Origin: Candidatus Zixiibacteriota bacterium
GTDB taxonomy: Bacteria; Zixibacteria; MSB-5A5; RBG-16-43-9
NCBI GenBank assembly: GCA_030692925.1
Contig: JAUYBY010000078.1
Span: forward strand, 1 to 63,202
DNA: 63,202 bases
Reading direction: 5' to 3'
This document shows positions 20,725-58,985 of this stretch, piece after piece (the stretch's first letter is position 1; every line of letters begins with the position of its first letter). The notes beneath the pieces are model-generated. The model was not told the DNA's origin. It saw nothing but the letters and a program-made list of their open reading frames with translations, and did not search any database. Position numbers and translations under genes: made by a program.

Positions 20725-20787
20725 CGCTGGTTGTTGGTCTCCAAACCAACAGGTTGCCTGCGTTGGTGAGGACACCAACGCAGAGCA
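20725..20787. repeat. GTTGG-type REP doublet (A + inverted B)
   Basis: GTTGGTCTCCAAACCAAC then GTTGGTGAGGACACCAAC, matching the RAYT-flanking repeats. Confidence 0.85.
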
Positions 20788-20916
20788 AATATAGAGATTA
20801 CGTAGCCCGACGGGGAAAAACTTTATGTTTATCTCCGGTTCCGTCACCGAGATCGTCTTAGATGTGCAGGAGATACCGACTCAAACCAAAGAAACTGACT
20901 AAGAAAGGAGTTCTCT

Positions 20917-23215: not shown

Positions 23216-23793
23216 TGTCATTGCGAGGAGTTCCCTTAGGGAGCGACGAAGCAATCCGTACAAAATTAGTATCCCTACCTTGCCCCCAAAGCGGGATATC
23301 CAACAAACTGTAGGGGCACATTGCAACGTGCCCCTTGTATACTGGAAGCGTAGGGACAGAACAGTGTTCTGTCCCTACAGCTTTGTTCCCTCTCCTTTTC
23401 AAGCCGATAAAAGCTTTACGGTCCTACGGAGGCTTCGCTCCTCGTAGAGGAGTGGGTCAGAGTGAGGTTAAAAATATAGCGTGGGGCTTTATGCCCGACG
23501 TTTTTTGTAGGTAGAGACGCATAGCCATGCGTCTCTACCTGCTCTTCGTTGGTGTCCTCACCAACGAAGGGTATTAGCTGAGGAGTTCATTGCTTCGTTA
23601 GCGACCCTAAAAGGGTTGCGCTACAAGCTTCACCCTCAAACAAGTTTGAGGGTGCCACCCGCCGAAATACGAAAAAAATAAGCAACCCTGAAGGGTTGCC
23701 TTACGATTTCTTTTCCCCGGTCACGAAAAACTGTAAACGGTCCCGGTTTTTTATTTTCCCTTGAACCCTCGACTCCTCGAATCCTCGAACCCT
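23216..23793. repeat. dense mosaic of different REP-like palindromes in a convergent intergenic region
   Basis: GTAGGGGCAC.., GTAGGGACAGAACAGTGTTCTGTCCCTAC, GTAGAGACGCAT..ATGCGTCTCTAC, GTTGG-type REP (23544-23569), GCGACCCT..AGGGTTGC, CACCCTCAAAC..GTTTGAGGGTG, octamer tandem repeat. Confidence 0.85.
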
Positions 23794-29158: not shown

Positions 29159-29953
29159 TTAAAAGGACTCCACATAGATTATCCGGAATTCTCTTCCGAT
29201 CTGTGAGATATTTTTCGTATTCTGAAGGATATTCCTCAAATCTAATTCCAGAGAAAGCCGGTCTGAGAAAATCCATTGAATCCCTAAGTTAAGATAGCCT
29301 CTTCCTTTGCCGAAAGCGCTGTTGTTGTCGTCATTGGTTCCGAGGTCATATTCTAAGATACCTCCTATGCTCTCATTGAACCTTATGTCAGTTCCCATAA
29401 AGAGATTAAGATTTTTATCCTTATCATCATTTTCCAGGCTATAATTAGCCCCGAAGTGAAACCCCATCAGTATGTCATAGACCAGATAATTCTTGCTGAC
29501 CACCCCGTAAAAACCTCTGGATTTAAACTGGTATCTCTTCAGGGAATCGTCATACTCCCCCATCCCTTGCCCATCATACCCCAGGGCAAAAGCTGGCAAC
29601 AGGTAGCTTTCATTAATCAGCCTGATCTTAGCAGCAATCTCGGGCCTCGGATTCCAGACAGGCTTTTCCTGACTTATGAGCTTTGCCCCACCGTAAGATA
29701 TCCCTAACATAAACCTCTTCATCAGTCCAATGTCGATAGTATTTATTACCCCTCCTCCAGGGTAGATTTTTATGTCAAAGTCAAAACTACCTCTGGGTAA
29801 AAGTCCGGCTGTTGGAGTATCGATTAGTTTACGAGGCTGGATACTCCCCCACTCCTTTATCCGGGTCACCTTCCCCTGTTCCACTTTCTGAGAAAAAGCC
29901 AAATCCTGTAATAGAAATAAGGATAAAACTGTGATAAAGACAACTTTTTTCAT
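29159..29953 (-). CDS. YjbH-like outer-membrane beta-barrel protein
   Basis: signal peptide; LIDTPTAGLL, K.RLI.E..LLPA.A.G, YLNLG.QW; C-terminal Phe; ATG at 29953 with GGAGGAG RBS. Confidence 0.7.
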   Translation of the reverse strand: MKKVVFITVLSLFLLQDLAFSQKVEQGKVTRIKEWGSIQPRKLIDTPTAGLLPRGSFDFDIKIYPGGGVINTIDIGLMKRFMLGISYGGAKLISQEKPVWNPRPEIAAKIRLINESYLLPAFALGYDGQGMGEYDDSLKRYQFKSRGFYGVVSKNYLVYDILMGFHFGANYSLENDDKDKNLNLFMGTDIRFNESIGGILEYDLGTNDDNNSAFGKGRGYLNLGIQWIFSDRLSLELDLRNILQNTKNISQIGREFRIIYVESF

Positions 29954-30118
29954 CTTCTCCTCCAGTTTTAGGTTCACCTTCAAGTTCCAACTTAATCCCA
30001 GAAAGCTTTCAAGTCAAATAAAATCTTCTCGAATGGAGTGTAAAGCTTTAGCTTTACTCATTGGCCTTTGCTCTTCGTCCGAACTTGTCGTCAAGACCCA
30101 AAATCGGGGATCCATAGG

Positions 30119-30173
30119 ATTGGTGTCCTCTCCAACGAAAAAAGTTTGTTGGTCAGGAGACCAACAAACAGCG
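30119..30173. repeat. GTTGG-type REP doublet (reverse orientation)
   Basis: ATTGGTGTCCTCTCCAAC and GTTTGTTGGTCAGGAGACCAACAAAC. Confidence 0.8.
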
Positions 30174-30417
30174 AGGGAAGTCTCCACACGTTCAACTCGT
30201 AGGTCGGGCACCCTTGCCCGACCTACGTTGGATACTTTTTTAGCGATCCAGCTATCAAATACAATTAAATAAGCAATCCTTATGCCTGAAAAATAAGAAT
30301 TGGGGGGTTCTGTAAGTGGCTGATTTATACGCAGATATTTGAAGGTTTATCTTTTAAAGAAAATCTGAAATCATCTTCTTGCACAAAAATCATTCAGAGG
30401 CAAAACTTTTTTGTGCA

Positions 30418-30930
30418 TCAGCTCCATTCATCATAACATACTATTTCCTCTAACTTTTTCCTGTGCCTTGCAGGAGGTATAGTTTTCGGATAACCCAGTG
30501 GGAAAATCTGAACTATCCTGATATTTTCCGGGATCTGCAGGATTTTTTTGACCTCATCCTCCTTGAAAGCACCAATCCAGCAGGTCCCTAAACCTTCTTC
30601 AACTGCCTGCAGAGTCATATGATCCATTGCAATTGTCAAATCGATGGGATAGGCATACTGTCCGCAGGTCATAATATAATCTACCACAGTGGCGCACCCT
30701 ACGATTATCACCGGTGCCTCCGCTAAAAAGTGCTGATTATTAGCAGCGGAGGCAACCTTCTTCCTTAATTCCTTATCTCTGACGATCACAAATCTCCATT
30801 CCTGCAGATTTTTGGCTGAAGGGGCTAATCTACCTGCCTCTAAGACTCTTAATAATTTTTCTTCCTCGATAGGCTTATCTAAAAAGCTGCGGATGCTTCT
30901 TCTGGTTTTAATTGCATCAAAGACGTTCAT
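30418..30930 (-). CDS. nitroreductase family protein
   Basis: RRSIRSF, APSAKNLQ.W.F, GLGTCWIG, LGYP. Confidence 0.93.
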   Translation of the reverse strand: MNVFDAIKTRRSIRSFLDKPIEEEKLLRVLEAGRLAPSAKNLQEWRFVIVRDKELRKKVASAANNQHFLAEAPVIIVGCATVVDYIMTCGQYAYPIDLTIAMDHMTLQAVEEGLGTCWIGAFKEDEVKKILQIPENIRIVQIFPLGYPKTIPPARHRKKLEEIVCYDEWS

Positions 30931-31296
30931 GTGCTCCTCCCAAGTAGCATAAAAACCGTGAGCGTGACTCGTTCCTCGTGAGCGTGAAGAAAGGAATTCC
31001 TAAGTTCAGCCAAAGCTGAGAATAATTGTGTTATAACGACTTAATAAGTCGCGTAGGGGTGGAGCTTGTTGAGCTTTGCGAAATCCCGCCAAAAGGCGTG
31101 GGGCCGGCCTCCACCCTTATCCATTGGGCGTCCAACTGAACGTCCCTACGCGTGTTGTAGTATGCTCACGAACAACGGTCACGAGTAACGTTTTTTTGAA
31201 GAAACAAATAGGGACGCTCAGTTAAACGTCCCTACTGTTTTCTCATGCATATCTTTTGTCCGTCATCCGTTATCCGGCATTCGTCATCTCTTGAGT

Positions 31297-33432
31297 CTAC
31301 TTCTTGATAAACAAATTCGGATCCACCTTCGCATTCAGGTTCATCTCCAGAACCTTGGTCTCGGCATATTTCTTCCCCTCAACGTTGATCACCCGGTCAA
31401 AGGGAAGTTTCACTCCTGAGACTTCCCTGAAATCAGACAGGACTTCCTCGAAGTTGGCTGGGCCCATCATACCCTGTCCCCTATAGGAGATCTTGACCGG
31501 AAGATAAGATGTCGGGTCTAGGTACATTTTTAATTCATTTCCAGAAGGATCGAAGATCAAAAGAAGGCCCAGTTTTTTCCCTTCAGATTCTTCCTCGCCT
31601 AAATCCTGAATCTTTAAGTTCTCCGCCTGAAAAAGATTGGTGAAAGAGCGGAAAAGTTCACCCTTGGTTTCTTTCACCTGAGACTCCGGTAAATCCTGCG
31701 AGCCCTGAGGACCCACAAACCAGCCTTTCTCCCCATCGAAAACCACAGTGAATATCCCACCAGGAGTGTTCATCTCCTGCACTACCTTATTCGGGAAGAT
31801 CTGGCTGGAAGTAACTGAAAGCTGAATATCTCCCTGGGGAGTCGAGACGCTGGTCTCTGTCTTTATCACTGCGCTCTTGATAGCAGAAAAACTCTTTTTC
31901 CCACCGCAGGCGGCAATTACTTTATCGAAAATCTCTTTTCCTTTAGCTAAAGAAGCTGGCGTGGCTTCTGGAGTCTTCTCCTTTGCCTGAGGAGCGGCTT
32001 CAGGTATAGTTATATCTATGGTATCAACTTTACCCAGTACTGAAAGCGGCTGGTCAAAATCCTGGCTTTTCCCCACAGCTAAAATCACTAACTGATCTGG
32101 ATGGAGATGCGATTTGGCTGCTCTGAGTATGTCCGTCTTGGTGACCTTCTCTATCTGGGCTCTGGTCTTCTGGGTGAAATCTAAAGGGAAGCCGTAGTAT
32201 TCATACGTCATAAGACGGTTGACCACCTTATCCTTGGTATCGAACCTGAAGGCAAAGGAATTAAGATAATACTCCTTGGCTCTATTCAACTCCTCGTCTG
32301 TGACCTCTTCCTGAGTGAGCCTCCTGATCTCATCGATCATTAAATTTATGGCTTTCACTGTTGACCCGGATTTGGTTTGACAGAGAACGTAAAAAGCGTC
32401 CGGATAAGCGAAGTCGAAGCTGTAAGCACCGCCTACATGGTAAGCCAGTCCTTCCTCGGAGCGAACCTTTGTGAAAAGCCGCGAGGCAAAGCTGCCGCCA
32501 AAGATATTATTCATCACCGTTATGGCAAAGTAGTCCGGATCATTCATCATTCCACCTATATGACCCAGATAGATGTTTGCCTGGTTGACATCATCTTTTT
32601 TTACCAGATTAACTGAGGAGTGATATTTGTAATCCACCTTTGGAAATTCCAGCCCTTCGACCTTTTCCGGCTTCCAGTTGGCAAAAGCTTTTTTTATCTT
32701 CTGGAGCATATCCTTAGTATTGAAATCCCCCCACACTCCCACAATCACCAAATTCGGGTGAAAATATTTCTTGTGAAATTCAACCAGGTCTTCTTGTTTA
32801 ATGTTATCGATGGTGGCATATTCCGGAACACGCGCATACGGGCTTTGCGCTCCATAAATAAGCTTATCGAATTCGCGTGCGGAGATCTGTCCCACCTGGT
32901 CATTTCTGCGCGAGATACCACTTTTCTGCTGGACCTTTGCCAGATCGATCTTATCCTGGTCGAACTTCGGGTCCATCAGGATGTCCGCCAAAATGGAGAG
33001 TCCCTTATCCACATCCTCTTTTAGAACTGACATGGAGGCGCCACCTTCTGTTCCTCCGATATAGGTCTCGACTGAAGCGCCCAGTTTCTCTAACTCATCG
33101 TCTATCTGGTCTCCGGTCCTGTTCCCAGCACCCCCGGTTCTCATAACCATCCCGGTGATACTGGCAAGACCTATTTTGTCTGCTGGCTCAAATACCGAGC
33201 CGGTCTTGATTTTAGCAGATAACCCCACAATGGGAAGCTGATGGTCTTCTGCTAAAAAAACTATCATCCCATTAGAAAGGACTTCCCTTTTTACCTCCGG
33301 GATTTTCAACTGCCCCAGAGGAGGATATTTTAAGTCTTTATAACTTTTCTGCGCCCAACCCGCAGAGGTGACAAACAAAATCAGAAACATCACCAGAAAA
33401 AGGTACTTAAAGTTTTTCATACTCCTGAACAT
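31297..33432 (-). CDS. M16 (pitrilysin) peptidase, non-catalytic partner subunit, with extra C-terminal beta-rich (LolA-like) domain
   Basis: signal peptide; M16 fold lacking HXXEH; GG.FASRLF..VR...GLAY motif; ~230-aa C-terminal extension. Confidence 0.82.
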   Translation of the reverse strand: MFRSMKNFKYLFLVMFLILFVTSAGWAQKSYKDLKYPPLGQLKIPEVKREVLSNGMIVFLAEDHQLPIVGLSAKIKTGSVFEPADKIGLASITGMVMRTGGAGNRTGDQIDDELEKLGASVETYIGGTEGGASMSVLKEDVDKGLSILADILMDPKFDQDKIDLAKVQQKSGISRRNDQVGQISAREFDKLIYGAQSPYARVPEYATIDNIKQEDLVEFHKKYFHPNLVIVGVWGDFNTKDMLQKIKKAFANWKPEKVEGLEFPKVDYKYHSSVNLVKKDDVNQANIYLGHIGGMMNDPDYFAITVMNNIFGGSFASRLFTKVRSEEGLAYHVGGAYSFDFAYPDAFYVLCQTKSGSTVKAINLMIDEIRRLTQEEVTDEELNRAKEYYLNSFAFRFDTKDKVVNRLMTYEYYGFPLDFTQKTRAQIEKVTKTDILRAAKSHLHPDQLVILAVGKSQDFDQPLSVLGKVDTIDITIPEAAPQAKEKTPEATPASLAKGKEIFDKVIAACGGKKSFSAIKSAVIKTETSVSTPQGDIQLSVTSSQIFPNKVVQEMNTPGGIFTVVFDGEKGWFVGPQGSQDLPESQVKETKGELFRSFTNLFQAENLKIQDLGEEESEGKKLGLLLIFDPSGNELKMYLDPTSYLPVKISYRGQGMMGPANFEEVLSDFREVSGVKLPFDRVINVEGKKYAETKVLEMNLNAKVDPNLFIKK

Positions 33433-33539
33433 CTCTTTTCTCCTTCTGTCAAGATTCATTGTATTGTTTTGTGAATTCATTGTTCTTTTCTTATTTTTTT
33501 CCCTTGAACTCTTGCACCCTTAAACCTTTGAACTTTTTT

Positions 33540-35054
33540 TTATTTTGTAGTAACTATCTCCCCCACTGTCCGGTTGGTTTTCTTGAGATATTCATTTGCC
33601 GCTTTCTGAATGTCTGAAGGGGCGAGACTGTTTATCCTATCCAGTTCTTTGAACAGGTTTCTCCAGTCTCCGGATATCACCTGATAAGAGGTAAGCTGAA
33701 TCCCCATTCCCATATTGGATTTAAGCTGTCTTATGAAGTTTGCTTTTGCCCTGGTCTTGATAGCATTCAAATCCTCAGTGGAAATAGGATCGGTCTTTAT
33801 CTTTTCTATTTCCTGGTAGATTATATCCTCGCATTCCTGATTGGAATGGTCCTTAGCCGGAACCGCATAGAAGGCGATCAGGGTAGGATATTTCTCCGCC
33901 GGGAAAGCCGGTATCGCTCCGACCTGCACTGCTATTTTTTTCTCCTTGACCAGGATTTTATAAAGCCGCGAAGTCCGTCCGCCACCCAGGTAATCAGCTA
34001 TTGCTGAGAAAGCCGGATCTTCGGAATTGTTGGTGTTGGGGCGGTGATACCCGATGAGCAGGATCGGCTGGGACTTATCCTCGACTTCTATCCTTTTCTC
34101 CCCTAACTGCGGGGGCTCTACGGTTCTTACCGGAGAAGGATATTCCCCCCTGGGAATGCTTCCGAAATACTCCTGGGCAAAGGCTATTACTTCTTTTGGA
34201 TTAACGTCTCCCACAATTCCGATGGTGAGGTTGTTCGGTATATAATATTTTTTGTAATAATCCTGCGCTTGATGACGAGTGATCGATTGAAGGTCAGACA
34301 TATGCCCGATTACTTGGTGGTGGTAGGGGTGTGACTTAAAGGCGGCTGCCATAAACTCCTCAAACAGTTTTCCGAACGGACTGCTCTCTATTCCCAGTCT
34401 TCGCTCCTCCATTATCACGTCTTTTTCCTTATAAAATTCACGCAAAACCGGATGCATGAATCGATCCGATTCTAATGCCATCCATAGCTCTAACTTGTTG
34501 GAGGGAAAGCTATATATGTAGCAGGTCTGGTCATCGGAGGTAAAAGCGTTCAGTCCCACTCCACCTGCTTCCTCCACTATTGCTCCGAATTGATTGCTCA
34601 CTACGTATTTTCCCGCCTCGTCCTGGGTTTTGGAGAACTCATCCTGCAATTTTTTCAGCCGCTCCTGGTCTGCCCTGTCCCCTTTATCCCTTTCCATTAA
34701 AATCTCATTGAAAAGGGAATCCTCTTTTGCCATCACTATTTTTTCTTTTTCATAATCTTTTGTACTGATATCAGTGGTTCCTTTGAAAGCCATATGTTCA
34801 AAAATGTGAGATATCCCGGTTATCCCGGTAACCTCATTGTTCGAGCCTACGTTGGCATAGGTGCAAAAGGAAACCACTGGAGCCTCGTGCCTTTCTAAGA
34901 TGATAAATTTTAACCCATTGGGAAGGGTGTACTCGGTGATGTCTTTTTCCATCCCTTTAAAAGAATCCAGGGGTTTACTCTTTTGCCCGAAGGAGAATGA
35001 GAATAGGAGTGAAACTAAAACTAAGCTTAGAGCAAAACACCTCTTCTTAAACAT
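33540..35054 (-). CDS. M16 (pitrilysin) zinc peptidase, catalytic subunit
   Basis: signal peptide; GISHIFEHMAFKGT, NAFTS.DQT, EKDVIMEERR. Confidence 0.93.
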   Translation of the reverse strand: MFKKRCFALSLVLVSLLFSFSFGQKSKPLDSFKGMEKDITEYTLPNGLKFIILERHEAPVVSFCTYANVGSNNEVTGITGISHIFEHMAFKGTTDISTKDYEKEKIVMAKEDSLFNEILMERDKGDRADQERLKKLQDEFSKTQDEAGKYVVSNQFGAIVEEAGGVGLNAFTSDDQTCYIYSFPSNKLELWMALESDRFMHPVLREFYKEKDVIMEERRLGIESSPFGKLFEEFMAAAFKSHPYHHQVIGHMSDLQSITRHQAQDYYKKYYIPNNLTIGIVGDVNPKEVIAFAQEYFGSIPRGEYPSPVRTVEPPQLGEKRIEVEDKSQPILLIGYHRPNTNNSEDPAFSAIADYLGGGRTSRLYKILVKEKKIAVQVGAIPAFPAEKYPTLIAFYAVPAKDHSNQECEDIIYQEIEKIKTDPISTEDLNAIKTRAKANFIRQLKSNMGMGIQLTSYQVISGDWRNLFKELDRINSLAPSDIQKAANEYLKKTNRTVGEIVTTK

Positions 35055-35607
35055 AAAACCTTACCTCCTGTAAATGGTTAATTGTTATAGCTTTTATTTG
35101 TTTCCTGTATGTAGAGGAAGGCTTCAGCCTTCCAACCGATAAAATATCATCCTTGCCACCAAGAAATAGAAGCATCACTATTCCTACAAAATATAGTCCA
35201 CAATTTAACCAAAACCGCCACTTTGTCAAGGGCATCACTCATCTTTTTTTTGAATATCCAACCGTGGTTTCTTTTATACCTTAGTTCTTTGCTGATTGTT
35301 GCATTTTTTTACAAACATTAGGGCTCATTACAATACGACCCGTCTTTTCTGCAAGTAGCTGTAGGGACAGAACAGTGTTCTGTCCCTACAAAATCTTCCA
35401 CTCTACCTACGGGAGAGAGTTAAGATGAGGTCCTGTTATCAAACAGTAGACCTATTTTTACAGGGCGAGGGAACCTCGCCCCTACAAAGCATCAAGATCT
35501 TGAATCTTGTGAGAGTGCCACAGGCGTCCCGCCTGTGATAACAAGTTGCCACAGGAGTGGTAACGCTACGACCTTGACCTCTCGAATCCTTCAATCCTTT
35601 CGCATTG

Positions 35608-36342
35608 TCACAGCTTTAGCCCTTCCCATTTCCTGAATACCTCCAAAACCATCTTCTTAATTTTCTCCGCCACTTTTTGCATATAGATTTTCGCCTTTTT
35701 CTCATCGAAATCCGGATACCCCTCATTTTCCTTATACAGGATGATGGAGGATGGGACAGGCACTACGCTGAGAGCTTCGTCAAATTTATAAGTCATTCCC
35801 TTCTTATACAGGTCTTCTTTGACCAAGCTTTTGTCAATTGCTAGAATTCCGGCAGTTTCATCCACGGCTCCATGCCCTCCAGCAACGCCATAGACTTGCT
35901 TGGTTATATCTTCACACAAAATCCACCAATGCACCACAGCAATTTTTGCCTTTCTGGCTTTATGAACCTTAAAAGCCGCATTTTTCAACTCATTCAGATG
36001 TCCCCCGTGCCCGTTGATTACAACAATCTTTGAAAAACCTTTTTCAGCCATCGAATCGATGATCTCATAAAGGTAATTTTCAAAAGTCTGCGAGGTAACG
36101 CTCAAAGAGCCGGGATAATGATAAAGGCTTCGCGTGACACCATAATAGACCGGAGGTGCAATAATTGCCTTTAAATCCCCTGCAATCATCTCCGCTATCT
36201 TTTGAGGTATCTGCACGTCCGTTCCTAAAGTAATGACACCATGAGCCTCAATCGTGCCTACTGGCAGGATAATGGTGTCAATTTTTTTCGGAACCAGCTT
36301 TTGAAACTCCATCCAGTTCAGATTTTCCAACCTGTAAACCAT
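35608..36342 (-). CDS. creatininase/mycofactocin peptidase-family amidohydrolase
   Basis: LPVGTIEAHG, GTD, NGHGG, GGHG..DET. Confidence 0.88.
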   Translation of the reverse strand: MVYRLENLNWMEFQKLVPKKIDTIILPVGTIEAHGVITLGTDVQIPQKIAEMIAGDLKAIIAPPVYYGVTRSLYHYPGSLSVTSQTFENYLYEIIDSMAEKGFSKIVVINGHGGHLNELKNAAFKVHKARKAKIAVVHWWILCEDITKQVYGVAGGHGAVDETAGILAIDKSLVKEDLYKKGMTYKFDEALSVVPVPSSIILYKENEGYPDFDEKKAKIYMQKVAEKIKKMVLEVFRKWEGLKL

Positions 36343-37161: not shown

Positions 37162-37385
37162 AAAACCTCCTTTTTTCTTTTCGTAGGGCAAACCTTCAGG
37201 TTTGCCTTTTTTATGACGTGATTCAGGAAGGTAGCCGCAAGCTTTAGCTTGCGATTTTTACAACTGGAGTATTCTAACTCAGACATAAAGTCTATGGCTA
37301 CCAACTCAAGATTCTTTCTGGGCCTTAAGGCTTACCTGTTCTTTCACTCCGCTTATAGCGGAGGTTTACGTCTTTTTAAAACTTT

Positions 37386-37476
37386 CGTAGCGCGACCCTT
37401 TTCCTATTAACGGATCCGTAGGACAGGGTCGCAATGCGAGGCTAAAAGTCTCAAGACCTTGACGGCCTCGCGCTAC
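37386..37476. repeat. GTAGCGCGACCC...GCCTCGCGCTAC REP doublet carrying two loop insertions
   Basis: compared with the uninterrupted copy at 60972-61023; inserts at 37402-37423 and 37449-37465. Confidence 0.75.
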
Positions 37477-37480
37477 GAAA

Positions 37481-41415: not shown

Positions 41416-41538
41416 TGCTCCTTGTTGGTCTCCAGACCAACAAGGTTCCTTTGGTGCTTTGATTAACGAGGCTCCGTTGGTGAGGACACCAACGGAAAGC
41501 GAGGGAATGCTGGTCGTTGGTCTCCTGACCAACGACCA
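41416..41538. repeat. REP array downstream of the RAYT gene (A, degenerate, B, A)
   Basis: GTTGGTCTCC[A/T]GACCAAC and GTTGGTGAGGACACCAAC hairpins. Confidence 0.9.
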
Positions 41539-41539
41539 A

Positions 41540-42085
41540 TCATACAAGGTCTCTAGGATCGGTCAATTTAAAGAACTTAAAAGGTTTCTCAGATAAGTAA
41601 TAGGCTGCGCTTGAATAAGGGTGGTCCTCTGGATAATCAACTAATCTCCATTCAGGTTGAATCGGATTATTATGAATATATTCAGCTTTCTGTAATAGAA
41701 ATTTAGCTGAATAGATATTTTTAAAGTTAGTGTCCCTCTTCCAGATTTGATATAATCTATCCTTCTTTTTCACCATAAATTTACTCAATAAATGAGGATC
41801 TGTTTCTTTCATAACCTTAATTATCTGGTTGGCGGTAAATTTGTGGAAATCCTGGTTTACTTTTTCCATTCTATTCTCGCCTAAGAGTTTTAGAATGAGA
41901 TGAAGGTGATCCGGCATTAAGACAAATGCATAAATATTAACCCATTCATTCCTGGTAATAAAATTCAGACTATCTAAGATTATATCAACATAGATAACAT
42001 CGTGAAAAATAGGAACCCATTTAATAATGGTAGAAGTGACAAAGAAAAGATGTTCTTTTTCAAAATCTCTTACTTGTTGTTTCAT
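41540..42085 (-). mobile_element. REP-associated tyrosine transposase (RAYT/TnpA-REP, HUH Y1 family)
   Basis: FFVTST, AFVLMPDHLHLIL (HUH), FHKFTA, QIWKR, EYIHNNP (catalytic Tyr), YSSA; flanked on both sides by palindromic repeats. Confidence 0.92.
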
Positions 42086-42097
42086 ATAATTCTACCC

Positions 42098-42289
42098 CTT
42101 GGTTGGTGAGGACACCAACCGAGAGCATCGTCTTGCTCCTTGTTGGTCTCCTGACCAACAAGGAGCAATGTATCTATAGACAACAGGGCTCCGTTGGTGG
42201 GGACACCAACGGAGAGCACAGTTCTGCTGGTCGTTGGTCTCCTGACCAACGAGGCCTCCCCCTGTTGGTGAGGACACCAACAGGAAGCA
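42098..42289. repeat. REP array upstream of the RAYT gene (B, A, B, A, B)
   Basis: five alternating hairpins starting at 42102, 42142, 42193, 42233, 42264. Confidence 0.92.
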
Positions 42290-43665: not shown

Positions 43666-43679
43666 GATTTTTTCTCACC

Positions 43680-43846
43680 TGTCATTCTGAGGGAGTCCAG
43701 ATGGACGACCGAAGAATCTGTCGAATTTGACCTTGAGGCAGATTCTTCGCCCTGCGGGCTCAGAATGACAAAATAACACTTCCCGCACAGTCACTTTTAA
43801 CCTCCGACCAACAAGGCTCCATTGGTGAGGACACCAACGGAGAGCA
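43680..43846. repeat. TGTCATTCTGAG element followed by a partial A and a B GTTGG-type REP
   Basis: matches 19043-19136; CTCCATTGGTGAGGACACCAACGGAG at 43817-43842. Confidence 0.8.
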
Positions 43847-44758: not shown

Positions 44759-44918
44759 CTCCGTTGGTGTGGACACCAACGGAGAGCACCACCCTGCTTC
44801 TCGTTGGTCTCCTGACCAACGACCAATTCTTCTGCTCCTTGTTGGTCTCCGAACCAACAAGGTTCCTTTGGTGCTCTGACCAATGAAGCTCAGTTGGTGA
44901 GGACACCTACTGAGAGCT
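44759..44918. repeat. GTTGG-type REP array (B, A, A, degenerate, B)
   Basis: same hairpins as flank the RAYT; ~44832-44917 is a diverged copy of ~41415-41500. Confidence 0.88.
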
Positions 44919-45200: not shown

Positions 45201-46181
45201 ATGCCGGAATTATTCTTCAAAACTCCTATGGAAAGTAAACATCCGGAGGAAAAAGGTAAGGTTTATGATTTGATAATCCTGGGCGGGGGCCCTGCAGGAC
45301 TATCTGCAGCACTTTACGCTGGACGAGCCAGGCTGGATACCCTTTTGATAGAAAAAAATCTGCCCGGAGGACAGATCTCGATTACCGATTGGGTGGAGAA
45401 CTATCCCGGTTTCCCGGAAGGTATAACCGGGCTGGACCTTGCAAAAAAATTTGAGGATCATGCCAGGAAATTCGGAACCAGGATAGTTCTGGAGGAAGTG
45501 GTGGATGTGGACCTCAAATCAGAGCCTAAGATTATTAAGACCTCTCAGGGAGAGTATCGTGCACACGCTATAATTTTAGCCACTGGAAACGAGCCCAGGA
45601 AATTAAATATACCGGGGGAGGAGAAATTTAAAGGCAAGGGTGTATCTTATTGCGCCACCTGTGATGGGCCCTTTTTCAAAGATAAAGACATAGTCATTGT
45701 GGGATGCGGAAATTCCGGGGTTCAGGAAGGACTTTATCTTTTGCGGTTTGTAAAGAGCATCACCTTTGTGGAACGCCTTCAATGTCACAATGCGGAAAAA
45801 ATCCTGATGGAGAGGGCATTGAAAGAGCCGAAGATGAAATTTTATTATGAGCATGAGCTGGTCTCCATTGACGGTAAGGATAAAGTGGAATCTGTAACTG
45901 CCATTAATCTGAAGACCAAGGAGAAAATGGTGATCCCCGTTCAGGGCGTCTTTTTCTACGTAGGATTAGTGCCAAAAACTGAATTCCTGAGAGGAAAGGT
46001 AGACTGCGATCCTTACTGCTATGTCATCTGTAACGAGAACTCCTGCACCTCAGTCCCGGGAGTTTTTGCAGCAGGTGATGTGAGAATGAAAGACGTCAAG
46101 CAGATAGTTACCGCAGTGGCAGAGGGCGCTATTGCGGCAACTATGGCCTTGAAGTATCTGGAAGGGAAAAAGGAAATGTAG
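45201..46181 (+). CDS. trxB: thioredoxin-disulfide reductase
   Basis: GGGPAGLSAA, ENYPGF, GVSYCATCDG, GVFAAGDV. Confidence 0.94.
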   Translation: MPELFFKTPMESKHPEEKGKVYDLIILGGGPAGLSAALYAGRARLDTLLIEKNLPGGQISITDWVENYPGFPEGITGLDLAKKFEDHARKFGTRIVLEEVVDVDLKSEPKIIKTSQGEYRAHAIILATGNEPRKLNIPGEEKFKGKGVSYCATCDGPFFKDKDIVIVGCGNSGVQEGLYLLRFVKSITFVERLQCHNAEKILMERALKEPKMKFYYEHELVSIDGKDKVESVTAINLKTKEKMVIPVQGVFFYVGLVPKTEFLRGKVDCDPYCYVICNENSCTSVPGVFAAGDVRMKDVKQIVTAVAEGAIAATMALKYLEGKKEM

Positions 46182-46287
46182 CGGAGGTCTTCAGACCTCC
46201 ATTTGTCTTTCGTAGTGCGACCCTTTTAGGGTCGCCTATGACTCTGGTGTGTCAACCTTCAGGTCTACCATTAGTAAAGCTAAAGCT

Positions 46288-51002: not shown

Positions 51003-51091
51003 TCTTCGTTGGTGAGGACACCAACGAAGAGCAGCTTCAGCTTTCCATTCTTCCCCTTCCCAGACCATGGAGGTCTGAAGACCTCCGCTAC
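51003..51091. repeat. GTTGG-type REP plus GGAGGTCTGAAGACCTCCGCTAC (GTAG-type) REP
   Basis: TCTTCGTTGGTGAGGACACCAACGAAGA at 51003-51030; second family also at 10439, 46178, 58911, 60927. Confidence 0.8.
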
Positions 51092-58838: not shown

Positions 58839-58985
58839 TGCTCCTTGTTGGTCTCCTGACCAACGAGGCTCCGCTGGTGGGGACACCAACGGAGAGCACA
58901 ATAGGTTTTTGTAGCGGAGGTCTTCAGACCTCCATCTTTTTTTATGGAAGGCTAAAGTCTCAAGACCTTGACGGCCTTCCGCTAC
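58839..58985. repeat. GTTGG-type REP doublet followed by a GTAGCGGAGG...CCTTCCGCTAC doublet with a 17-nt insert
   Basis: A at 58847, B at 58873; GTAG doublet 58911-58985. Confidence 0.82.

What the first reader, a model, noticed from the sequence alone, without database searches (positions are those of the whole stretch)
41416..42289. RAYT transposase with a non-GTAG REP family arranged in alternating inverted arrays
Seen: an HUH/Y1 protein flanked by 3 clear hairpins on one side and 5 on the other. Type A is GTTGGT-C-TCCT-G-ACCAAC. Type B, read on the opposite strand, is GTTGGT-G-TCCT-C-ACCAAC: same loop, swapped closing pair. About 23 copies (some partial) occur across the window, always intergenic, often as A+B doublets (20.7, 30.1, 43.8, 44.8, 58.8 kb). 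Established: characterised TnpA-REP systems use REPs with a GTAG tetranucleotide at the hairpin foot. Here the conserved 5' motif is TGCT/CGCT, set 4 nt away from the core. Inference: a distinct RAYT-REP class with a different recognition code, recently active in this genome.
Basis: partly seen in the sequence, partly recalled or inferred. Interest (0 to 1): 0.85.

Follow-up and report, generated by a model that had tools for sequence, protein, structure and literature searches.

The report
Non-GTAG REP–RAYT system in Zixibacteria
A single-copy tyrosine transposase gene sits among small DNA hairpins whose conserved foot reads TGCT, not the textbook GTAG; the same hairpins are scattered through the genome, and the system is a clear new example of an already described but little-studied branch of these enzymes.

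Summary
ORF 41540-42085(-) encodes a 181-aa HUH/Y1 protein with 3 REP hairpins on one side and 5 on the other. The REP unit is (T/C)GCT, an 11-bp stem and a TCCT loop. Types A and B differ by a swapped closing pair and alternate in inverted order, as in BIMEs.

The genome holds 95 copies at 63 sites. GCT is present in 72 of 92 oriented copies and GT[AG]G in 0 of 92. Five other RAYT paralogs in the same genome carry canonical GTAG hairpins.

Sequence motifs, length, an inserted segment and a C-terminal SS tail match TnpAY1 subclass 2.6 (RAYT Group 5). That subclass was described in 2018 as flanked by "atypical", non-GT[AG]G structures.

Homologues from Bacteroidota, Chloroflexota and Poribacteria show the same layout, with a GCY foot on the pyrimidine-loop strand (80 versus 3 of 375 hairpins).

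"Recently active" is not supported. There are 77 distinct 30-mers among 92 copies, and most sites are shared with congeners. A congener lacking the REPtron keeps only 2 exact copies.

Verdict: new member of a known kind, of moderate interest.

The parts
41540..42085 (-). RAYT / TnpA-REP gene, 181 aa. HUH = H60-L-H62. Catalytic Tyr = Y136 in YIHNNP. C-terminal Y157-S158-S159.
   Evidence: ORF. NCBIfam. Invariant residues in a 25-sequence alignment. AF2 model pLDDT 91.6. Best fold match 4er8_A.
41416..41445 (+). REP type A: TGCT, 11-bp stem, TCCA loop
   Evidence: ssDNA fold -11.5 kcal/mol, z -5.6.
41472..41501 (-). REP type B: CGCT tag on the - strand
   Evidence: Fold -11.9 kcal/mol, z -6.5.
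41508..41537 (+). REP type A next to the RAYT stop codon. Forms a head-to-head pair with the previous B, cores 40 bp apart.
   Evidence: Fold -15.2 kcal/mol, z -7.2.
42098..42127 (-). REP type B next to the RAYT start, on the same strand as the gene
42134..42163 (+). REP type A, head-to-head with the previous B (cores 40 bp apart)
42189..42218 (-). REP type B with TCCC loop variant
42225..42254 (+). REP type A
42260..42289 (-). REP type B, tail-to-tail with the previous A
20725..20787 (.). Dispersed tail-to-tail A/B doublet. Absent at the orthologous site of congener G002 and three copies in G001.
23540..23569 (+). Dispersed single REP type B
30111..30173 (.). Dispersed doublet: a degenerate B (2 mismatches) plus A on the - strand
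43800..43846 (.). Partial A plus B (1 mismatch). The orthologous site in G003 holds a degenerate doublet.
44759..44918 (.). Array of 4-5 REPs (B-, A+, A+, degenerate B+, B-)
51004..51033 (-). Dispersed single REP type B, shared with G001 and G002
58839..58898 (.). Dispersed tail-to-tail A/B doublet

Best explanation
This is a REPtron: a single-copy REP-associated tyrosine transposase (RAYT/TnpA-REP) gene bracketed by its own family of REP hairpins. It belongs to the non-GTAG branch described as TnpAY1 subclass 2.6 / RAYT Group 5. The host is a Zixibacteria-like genome.

Shown here:
- The protein has an intact HUH/Y1 catalytic set.
- A confident model resembles E. coli TnpA-REP.
- About 95 copies of one hairpin family lie at 63 mostly intergenic sites.
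- The 5' foot is (T/C)GCT.
- Two variants (A and B) pair almost only with each other.
- The layout [tag-hairpin] gene [hairpin-tag] is conserved.

Inferred from the E. coli, S. maltophilia and Marinomonas enzymes and from IS608:
- The enzyme binds the folded hairpin in single-stranded DNA.
- It reads the foot motif as a recognition or guide sequence.
- It cuts and rejoins nearby through a 5'-phosphotyrosine link.
- In this way it maintains and occasionally duplicates REP doublets at a low rate.

Under the published cross-complementarity rule (guide positions 3-4 select the cut dinucleotide), a GCT foot predicts cutting at AG and a GCC foot at GG. That prediction is my inference and is untested.
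For: Protein:
- NCBIfam REP_Tyr_transpos E 2.9e-22.
- H60, H62, Y136, I137, H138, N139, N140, P141, S158, A160 and Y163 are invariant in 25 aligned homologues.
- The AF2 model has pLDDT 91.6.
- The best structural match is 4er8_A, E. coli TnpA-REP bound to a REP, TM 0.65/0.71.
- A profile hit to 4er8 has E 9.2e-11.
- There is one copy in the genome.

Repeats:
- 69 exact and 95 near-exact cores in 2.41 Mb.
- GCT at the foot in 72 of 92 oriented copies.
- The outer stem covaries.
- Hairpins fold at -11.5 to -15.2 kcal/mol, z -5.6 to -7.2.
- Of 32 neighbouring pairs, 24 are tail-to-tail A/B, 5 are head-to-head A/B at exactly 40 bp, and only 1 is A/A inverted.

Co-occurrence:
- Congeners G001 and G002 have a 92-93% orthologue and 58 and 46 tagged REPs.
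- G003 (93% complete) has no orthologue and 2 REPs.
- 0 of 32 genomes outside the family have any.
- At the syntenic site G003 has a 179-bp spacer in place of the REPtron.
- G003 also holds a degenerate doublet at the site orthologous to 43.8 kb.

Clade-wide:
- Among 375 oriented hairpins beside homologues in 131 loci, GCY sits exactly at the foot on the pyrimidine-loop strand in 80, against 3 on the other strand.
- Upstream hairpins are co-oriented with the gene 141:49 and downstream ones inverted 139:46.

Internal control: five other RAYT paralogs of this genome are flanked by GTAG-footed hairpins.

Selection: RAYT dN/dS is 0.32 and 0.23 against the two congeners.
Against: - No activity was tested, so binding, cutting and the role of the foot motif are all inferred.
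- The NCBIfam score is just under the curated cut-off (79.1 against 80), and Pfam Y1_Tnp is under its cut-off.
- The HUH is preceded by D and W115 is followed by K. The published subclass 2.6 motifs are NH[LIV]H and WQ.
- G006 (98% complete, same family) has 11 copies of this REP, but its best homologue is 36-39% identical and is flanked by a different hairpin with a GTG foot. REPs can therefore occur without a close orthologue being found.
- The GCY foot is not universal. With a looser window it is seen in 73 of 131 homologue loci.
- Sequence diversity is high: the master sequence accounts for 5 of 92 copies. This fits very slow or ceased duplication.
Confidence: 0.8

Rival explanations
1. 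The system is a relic. The RAYT no longer moves REPs (it is domesticated for another role or inert). The REPs persist as host elements such as transcript-end or structural hairpins, kept by selection at each site.
For: There are 77 distinct 30-mers among 92 copies, and the commonest is seen 5 times. Every window site whose flanks could be matched to a congener (7 in G001, 7 in G002) holds REPs there, except the 20.7 kb doublet, which G002 lacks. The outer stem keeps pairing through different base pairs, as expected if the fold itself is selected.
Against: The gene is intact and under purifying selection, dN/dS 0.23-0.32. Array sizes differ between congeners: 5/7/4 beside the gene and 4-5/2/3 at 44.8 kb. 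Whole doublets are present or absent at 20.7 kb and at a G002 site. The congener without the gene has only 2 exact copies against 46-58, which matches the published pattern of REPIN decay after RAYT loss (bioRxiv 10.1101/2021.07.10.451892, passages read).
Confidence: 0.2
2. It is an autonomous IS200/IS605-type insertion sequence. The hairpins are its ends, and the dispersed copies are MITE-like derivatives.
For: The fold is also similar to the IS608 and ISDra2 transposases, TM 0.45-0.51. The gene is bracketed by inverted hairpins with tags outward, like the tail-to-tail doublets. GC of the gene region is 0.34 against about 0.43 around it. Its dS against congeners (0.10-0.12) is lower than that of four neighbouring genes (0.20-0.80), which could mean exchange between lineages.
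Against: There is one copy per genome. The gene occupies the same syntenic site in three congeners. The Tyr motif is Y-x3-NP, not the Y-x3-Q of IS200 (Table 1 of PMC6006769). The NCBIfam IS200 model scores 15.7 against a cut-off of 55. No tnpB lies beside it.
Confidence: 0.05
3. It is a truly separate RAYT-REP class with its own recognition code, outside all published subclasses.
For: The foot motif TGCT is named in none of the texts I read, which give GT[AG]G, CGTC and CnGA. The residues that contact GTAG in E. coli (E100, H101, R104) align to F121, K122 and Y125 here. The phylum (Zixibacteria) is not listed for subclass 2.6.
Against: Length, the Y motif YIHNNP, the SS tail, the inserted segment between the two halves of the core, and Bacteroidota as nearest outside relatives all fit subclass 2.6 (Table 1 of PMC6006769). 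That paper already states that 2.6 lacks GT[AG]G and is not conserved in the GTAG-contact region.
Confidence: 0.1

Closest known systems
TnpAY1 subclass 2.6 (= RAYT Group 5), Quentin et al. 2018, PMC6006769; Bertels et al. 2017, PMC5581495
   Same: - Length: 181 aa against a median of 179.
- Y motif YIH[QN]NP.
- C-terminal tail with conserved serines.
- An extra segment between helix C and strand 4.
- Low copy number.
- Flanking hairpins without GT[AG]G that recur elsewhere in the genome.
- Nearest outside relatives are in Bacteroidota.
- Bertels reports flanking 16-mers at about 31 occurrences for Group 5, the same order as here.
   Different: - The host phylum is Zixibacteria.
- The HUH is preceded by D, not N, and WK replaces WQ.
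- The hairpins here are strong and regular (11-bp stem, tetraloop), not 'weaker'.
- The foot motif (T/C)GCT and the A/B dimorphism are explicit here, but the main text of the paper does not describe them. Its Table S1 could not be seen.
E. coli TnpA-REP with REP/BIME (subclass 2.2); PDB 4ER8; Ton-Hoang 2012 PMC3333891, Messing 2012 PMC3479197 (abstracts and outlines read)
   Same: - HUH/Y1 fold, and it is the best structural match.
- A single-copy gene inside a REPtron.
- Two REP variants that alternate in orientation, as Y and Z2 do in BIMEs.
- Intergenic dispersal.
   Different: - About 17% identity over the structural alignment.
- A GCT foot instead of GTAG.
- Perfect stems without a bulge.
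- About 21 extra residues between the two aligned halves.
- The GTAG-contact residues are not conserved.
S. maltophilia and Marinomonas TnpA-REP with perfect-palindrome REPs (Corneloup et al. 2021, PMC8266576; abstract and sections 21 and 28 read)
   Same: Perfect hairpins preceded by a 4-nt motif. In Marinomonas this motif was shown to steer the choice of cut site by cross-complementarity, which offers a testable rule for the GCT foot.
   Different: Those systems use GTAG. No enzyme of subclass 2.6 has been assayed in the papers I read.
IS200/IS605 insertion sequences (IS608, ISDra2)
   Same: The same catalytic fold. Subterminal hairpins with a 5' guide tetranucleotide. Single-strand chemistry.
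   Different: Those are multicopy autonomous elements with a Y-x3-Q motif, often with tnpB. Here there is one fixed gene copy, and only the hairpins are dispersed.

Membership tests
RAYT / TnpA-REP (TnpAY1 class 2) | HUH motif and a single catalytic Tyr in Y-x3-NP | tested here: met
   H60-L-H62 and Y136-IHNNP are invariant in the 25-sequence alignment. The class 2 signature is taken from PMC6006769 section 15.
RAYT / TnpA-REP (TnpAY1 class 2) | Curated family model score at or above the cut-off | tested here: inconclusive
   NF047646 scores 79.1 bits against a cut-off of 80, E 2.9e-22, and 79 bits in the genome scan. Pfam Y1_Tnp scores 19.9 against 23.
RAYT / TnpA-REP (TnpAY1 class 2) | Fold of TnpA-REP | tested here: met
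   AF2 pLDDT 91.6. Foldseek top hit 4er8_A, E 1.3e-7, TM 0.65/0.71.
RAYT / TnpA-REP (TnpAY1 class 2) | Single or low copy gene flanked by a REP family that is dispersed in intergenic DNA (REPtron) | tested here: met
   There is one copy. It has 3 + 5 flanking REPs. The genome holds 95 copies at 63 sites. All 9 window sites lie between long ORFs.
RAYT / TnpA-REP (TnpAY1 class 2) | Cuts and rejoins its REP in single-stranded DNA | not testable with these tools
   Needs purified protein and oligonucleotide substrates.
Canonical GTAG REP (subclasses 2.2, 2.4, 2.5, 2.7, 2.8) | 5' GT[AG]G at the foot of the hairpin | tested here: not met
   0 of 92 oriented copies have GT[AG]G in the 8 nt before the core, and 72 of 92 have GCT. 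The same kind of scan finds GTAG beside five other RAYT paralogs of this genome.
TnpAY1 subclass 2.6 / RAYT Group 5 | Y motif YIH[QN]NP, length near 179 aa, C-terminal tail with SS | tested here: met
   YIHNNP, 181 aa, Y157-S158-S159. Criteria are from Table 1 of PMC6006769.
TnpAY1 subclass 2.6 / RAYT Group 5 | HuH motif NH[LIV]H and W motif WQ | tested here: inconclusive
   This protein and its two closest relatives have DHLH and WK. Most other aligned homologues have NH.H and WQ.
TnpAY1 subclass 2.6 / RAYT Group 5 | Inserted segment (about 21 aa) between helix C and strand 4 | tested here: met
   Profile positions 83-112 face chain residues 83-91 of 4er8. The model has an extra helix 97-103 and strands 104-112 before strand 120-124.
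TnpAY1 subclass 2.6 / RAYT Group 5 | Flanked by non-GT[AG]G secondary structures that recur in the genome | tested here: met
TnpAY1 subclass 2.6 / RAYT Group 5 | Clusters with the published member sequences | not testable with these tools
The indirect evidence is that the nearest outside relatives are Bacteroidota.
BIME (mosaic of REPs) | Regularly spaced REPs of two variants in alternating orientation | tested here: met
   The window arrays are A+ B- A+ and B- A+ B- A+ B-. All 5 head-to-head pairs have cores 40 bp apart.
REPIN | Two inverted REPs that pair with each other into one long hairpin | tested here: inconclusive
   Inverted doublets dominate: 24 tail-to-tail and 5 head-to-head among 32 pairs. 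Three doublets folded as two separate hairpins, in one case closed by pairing of the outer tags. A and B would mismatch at both closing-pair positions.
IS200/IS605 insertion sequence | Multicopy transposase gene with a Y-x3-Q motif and IS ends | tested here: not met
   There is one copy. The motif is Y-x3-NP. The NCBIfam IS200 model scores 15.7 against 55.

The most novel reading that the evidence does not exclude
GCY at the hairpin foot is the guide motif of a whole branch of RAYTs (subclass 2.6-like, found here in Zixibacteria, Bacteroidota, Chloroflexota and Poribacteria). It would be a second working 'code' beside GTAG.

By the cross-complementarity rule it directs cutting at AG (GCT) or GG (GCC) rather than CT. 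It also keeps this system orthogonal to the five GTAG REPtrons that share the same cell.

The near-exclusive A/B pairing, a swapped closing base pair, would then serve to tell the two ends apart or to avoid perfect long palindromes.
Probability: 0.3. Interest if true: 0.6.

Novelty: new member of a known kind. Interest (0 to 1): 0.38.

Why it matters
All RAYTs assayed so far, in the papers I read, use GTAG-footed REPs. The non-GTAG branch has only been noted as 'atypical'.

This locus gives that branch a clean and simple substrate: TGCT, an 11-bp perfect stem and a tetraloop, in two variants. The foot is conserved across phyla. The same genome also carries GTAG systems that can serve as built-in specificity controls.

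That makes one question directly testable with oligonucleotides: whether the foot motif steers recognition and the choice of cut site. The result would also show whether RAYT specificity can be reprogrammed as it was for IS608.

The congener that lacks the gene and has almost no REPs adds a non-proteobacterial example of REP decay after RAYT loss.

Tried and rejected
- **Terminators.** I considered that the hairpins are intrinsic terminators. I rejected this because no T-run follows them in the copies read, and they occur in arrays of up to 5 in both orientations.
- **CRISPR or tandem repeats.** I rejected this because the units alternate in orientation with variable spacing.
- **Unoriented foot count.** A first count of foot motifs beside homologues gave a weak picture: GCY in 83 of 394 near hairpins and in 14 of 105 far ones. 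The far ones are not a clean control, since REPs are dispersed. I replaced it with the strand-oriented count.
- **Metagenome scan.** The only evidence that those are flanked by similar REPs is read-through translation in their termini, which I treat as a hint.
- **Full tree.** The tree of 182 rows did not finish in time. The tree I report has 62 rows, chosen as those with a called foot motif plus the own-genome paralogs. 120 rows without a clear motif were left out, so it cannot test whether motif and clade go together without bias. Its basal split has weak support (13).
- **Clean empty site.** I looked for one to define the mobile unit. The 20.7 kb and G002 sites are too diverged or rearranged to show exact borders.
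- **Apparent truncation.** The shortened orthologue in L024 is a run of N in the record, not a frameshift.
- **Supplements.** Additional file 2 Table S1 of PMC6006769 may already list these hairpins and their feet, which bears directly on novelty.
- **Print searches.** Searches found no paper in the held library that joins Zixibacteria with REPtron or TnpAREP. Only PMC6006769 mentions subclass 2.6.
Full report
**What is there**

The region 41416-42289 holds one ORF, 41540..42085 on the minus strand, 181 aa. It matches the NCBIfam model for REP-associated tyrosine transposases at E 2.9e-22, 79.1 bits, one bit under the curated cut-off. It does not match the IS200 model (15.7 against 55). Pfam Y1_Tnp is also just under its cut-off.

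In an alignment with 24 database homologues, H60, H62 (the HUH) and Y136-I-H-N-N-P are invariant, as are S158, A160 and Y163 in the tail. An AlphaFold model built on that alignment is confident (pLDDT 91.6). Its best match among solved structures is E. coli TnpA-REP bound to a REP hairpin (4er8_A, TM 0.65/0.71). The IS608 and ISDra2 transposases follow. The gene is single-copy in its genome; the next best matches are 32%, 34% and 28% identical.

**The repeats**

The strict core pattern occurs 15 times in the window against 0 in 100 shuffles. With one arm mismatch it occurs 20 times.

I oriented each copy so that its loop is pyrimidine-rich. All copies then read (T/C)GCT, four variable bases, GTTGGT, S, TCCT (or TCCA/TCCC), S', ACCAAC, and four bases that pair with the variable four. 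Each of the four outer positions pairs in 36-44 of 46 type A copies and 36-38 of 42 type B copies, through several different base pairs.

The unit is therefore an 11-bp stem with a 4-nt loop, and the tag lies directly at its 5' foot. Single units fold as DNA at -11.5 to -15.2 kcal/mol, z -5.6 to -7.2.

**Genome-wide picture**

The window is contig C85 of a 2.41-Mb, 112-contig assembly of 43% GC.

- It holds 69 exact and 95 near-exact cores in 63 clusters: 38 singles, 21 doublets, 2 triplets, one of four and one of five.
- Of 32 neighbouring pairs, 24 are tail-to-tail A/B and 5 are head-to-head A/B with cores exactly 40 bp apart. The other three are one A/A inverted, one A/A direct and one untyped. 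The A/B pairing is far from the even split expected by chance.
- Among 92 oriented copies, GCT is at the foot in 72 (TGCT 51, CGCT 15) and GT[AG]G is present in none.
- 37 of 95 copies lie wholly inside a stop-to-stop frame of 120 codons or more, although such frames cover 86% of the genome. This is a crude measure.
- In the window all 9 sites lie between long ORFs.
- The window holds 9 of the 63 clusters, where 1.65 are expected (Poisson P 6e-5). Without the two clusters beside the gene the P value is 1e-3. REPs are therefore denser around the gene.

**Architecture**

In the gene's orientation the nearest upstream REP has its tag on the gene's strand. The nearest downstream REP is inverted, so the tags point outward: [tag-B] gene [A-tag]. 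The common tail-to-tail doublet has the same form without the gene. Arrays alternate A and B in opposite orientation, which is the BIME layout known from E. coli (PMC3333891 abstract; PMC2817692 abstract).

Doublets fold as two separate hairpins rather than one long one. A and B would mismatch at both closing-pair positions if they paired with each other. I infer, without a test, that the dimorphism may mark the two ends or avoid perfect long palindromes.

**Relatives and co-occurrence**

A named record with a 94% orthologue is titled candidate division Zixibacteria (L024).

- Among 40 related genomes, two congeners (G001, G002) have a 92-93% orthologue and 58 and 46 tagged REPs. The own genome has 58.
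- The third congener, G003 (93% complete), has no orthologue (best E 4e-8) and 2 REPs.
- None of 32 genomes outside the family has any. These genomes are kin, so this is not a statistical test.
- At the syntenic site, between the same deacetylase-like and MATE-like genes, G003 has 179 bp without gene or REP.
- At the site orthologous to 43.8 kb, G003 has a degenerate doublet.

The simplest reading is that the REPs predate the genus split and decayed in G003 after loss of the gene. This pattern is published for Pseudomonas, Neisseria and E. coli (bioRxiv 10.1101/2021.07.10.451892, passages read).

One counter-example exists. G006 (another genus, 98% complete) has 11 copies of this REP. Its best homologue is only 36-39% identical and is flanked by a different hairpin with a GTG foot.

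**Is it recently active?**

The evidence says no, or only slowly.

- The 92 copies make 77 distinct 30-mers, and the commonest occurs 5 times.
- Seven of the window's nine REP sites could be anchored in each of G001 and G002. Every anchored site holds REPs there, apart from the 20.7 kb doublet, which G002 lacks.
- Turnover exists. The 20.7 kb doublet is absent in G002 and is three copies in G001. G002 has a doublet where the window has none. Array sizes differ: 5/7/4 beside the gene and 4-5/2/3 at 44.8 kb.
- The gene itself is under purifying selection, dN/dS 0.32 and 0.23.

**Homologues elsewhere**

A 44-45% paralog in G001 and G002, and a 43% homologue in another family's genome, G019, are flanked by a different hairpin that again has GCT at its foot. 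Homologues of 38-45% from Bacteroidota are flanked by strikingly similar hairpins (...TGTTGGTG or ...GGTC, a 4-nt pyrimidine loop) with GCC at the foot. Chloroflexota and Poribacteria examples carry GCT with other stems.

I analysed 375 hairpins beside homologues in 131 loci. Own-genome and near-identical loci were excluded, as were hairpins with an evenly mixed loop.

- GCY lies exactly at the foot on the pyrimidine-loop strand in 80, against 3 on the other strand.
- Within 6 nt the counts are 147 against 38.
- GT[AG]G is seen in 6 against 16.
- Upstream hairpins are co-oriented with the gene 141:49, and downstream ones are inverted 139:46.

The prediction that homologues carry the tagged hairpin is therefore met in a generalised form. 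The foot is not universal, however: it is found in 73 of 131 loci with the loose window. Some family-level relatives use GTG.

**Internal control**

The same genome has seven RAYT-like genes. Five of them (on C39, C49, C67, C11, C96) are flanked by hairpins with a canonical GTAG foot, several with 15-39 genome copies. GTAG-type REPs also lie in the window at 37.4 and 46.2 kb. The non-GTAG foot of the present family is therefore not an artefact of reading.

**Comparison with what is known**

Quentin et al. 2018 (PMC6006769; sections 12-15 and Table 1 read) split the family into subclasses. Subclass 2.6 equals Bertels' Group 5. Its features are:

- median length 179 aa;
- motifs NH[LIV]H, WQ and YIH[QN]NP;
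- a 21-aa insertion between helix C and strand 4;
- a tail with an SS motif;
- distribution mostly in Bacteroidetes;
- no conservation in the region that contacts GTAG in E. coli.

The present protein fits on length, Y motif, tail and insertion. It deviates in DHLH and WK. The E. coli contact residues E100, H101 and R104 align to F121, K122 and Y125.

Bertels et al. 2017 (PMC5581495, passages read) report Group 5 flanking 16-mers at about 31 occurrences. Di Nocera et al. 2013 (PMC3733652, passages read) define GTAG and CGTC tags and note untagged families. None of the texts I read names a GCY foot, but the relevant supplement could not be opened.

**Mechanism**

The steps shown and the steps inferred are listed under the best explanation. 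For the Marinomonas enzyme, guide positions 3-4 select the cut dinucleotide by cross-complementarity (PMC8266576, sections 21 and 28 read). Applying that rule predicts AG for a GCT foot. Type B copies do carry A (40 of 42) and G (38 of 42) at the 3' foot of the stem, but that is also what pairing with the conserved CT requires. It is therefore only a lead.

**Verdict**

- It is a new member of a known kind: a non-GTAG REPtron of the subclass 2.6 type, in a phylum where it had not been described in the papers I could search, with an unusually clean substrate.
- Interest is moderate.

Noticed in passing
own genome: C39:16021-16506, C49:154-534, C67:3470-3844, C11:48594-48938, C96:49153-49614, C46:25248-25715: Six further RAYT-like genes lie in the same 2.4-Mb genome. 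Five are flanked by hairpins with a canonical GTAG foot, belonging to families of up to 39 copies. C46 is flanked by a different hairpin of few copies.
   Followed up: partly
window 37383-37479 and 46173-46239: GTAG-footed REP doublets of other families lie inside the window. They give 27 and 71 BLAST hits in the own genome and recur in G001-G003.
   Followed up: partly
window 43679-43771: A 93-bp element with terminal inverted repeats, MITE-like, lies just after the MATE-like gene. It gives 42 hits in the own genome, 29 of them near full length, and many in G001-G003.
   Followed up: partly
window 41540-42085 compared with its neighbours: The RAYT gene region has GC 0.34 against about 0.43 nearby. 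Its synonymous divergence from the congeners (dS 0.10 and 0.12) is lower than that of four neighbouring genes (0.20-0.80). This could mean exchange of the REPtron between lineages or constrained, AT-biased codons. It was not resolved.
   Followed up: partly
window 20790-20815 compared with L191:1018-1060: At 20.7 kb the GCT-type doublet abuts half of a GTAG-type hairpin. G002 has the whole GTAG hairpin and no doublet there, so the two REP families seem to have interacted at one site.
   Followed up: partly
own genome, e.g. C9:25383, C13:41134, C20:9151: A third hairpin family (GTG foot, stem CCGTCGGGTC, loop CCCT) is present in the genome. In other genera of the family (L011, L012, L015, L017) the same hairpin flanks the 34-36% RAYT homologues.
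   Followed up: partly
L024:3464-3480: The named Zixibacteria record has a run of 17 N inside the C-terminal part of its RAYT orthologue. The apparent truncation there is a gap, not a frameshift.
   Followed up: yes
L193 (G001:C149), about 29694-35754: G001 carries about 6 kb that has no counterpart between window positions about 23.2 and 23.8 kb. It includes a further REP doublet.
   Followed up: no
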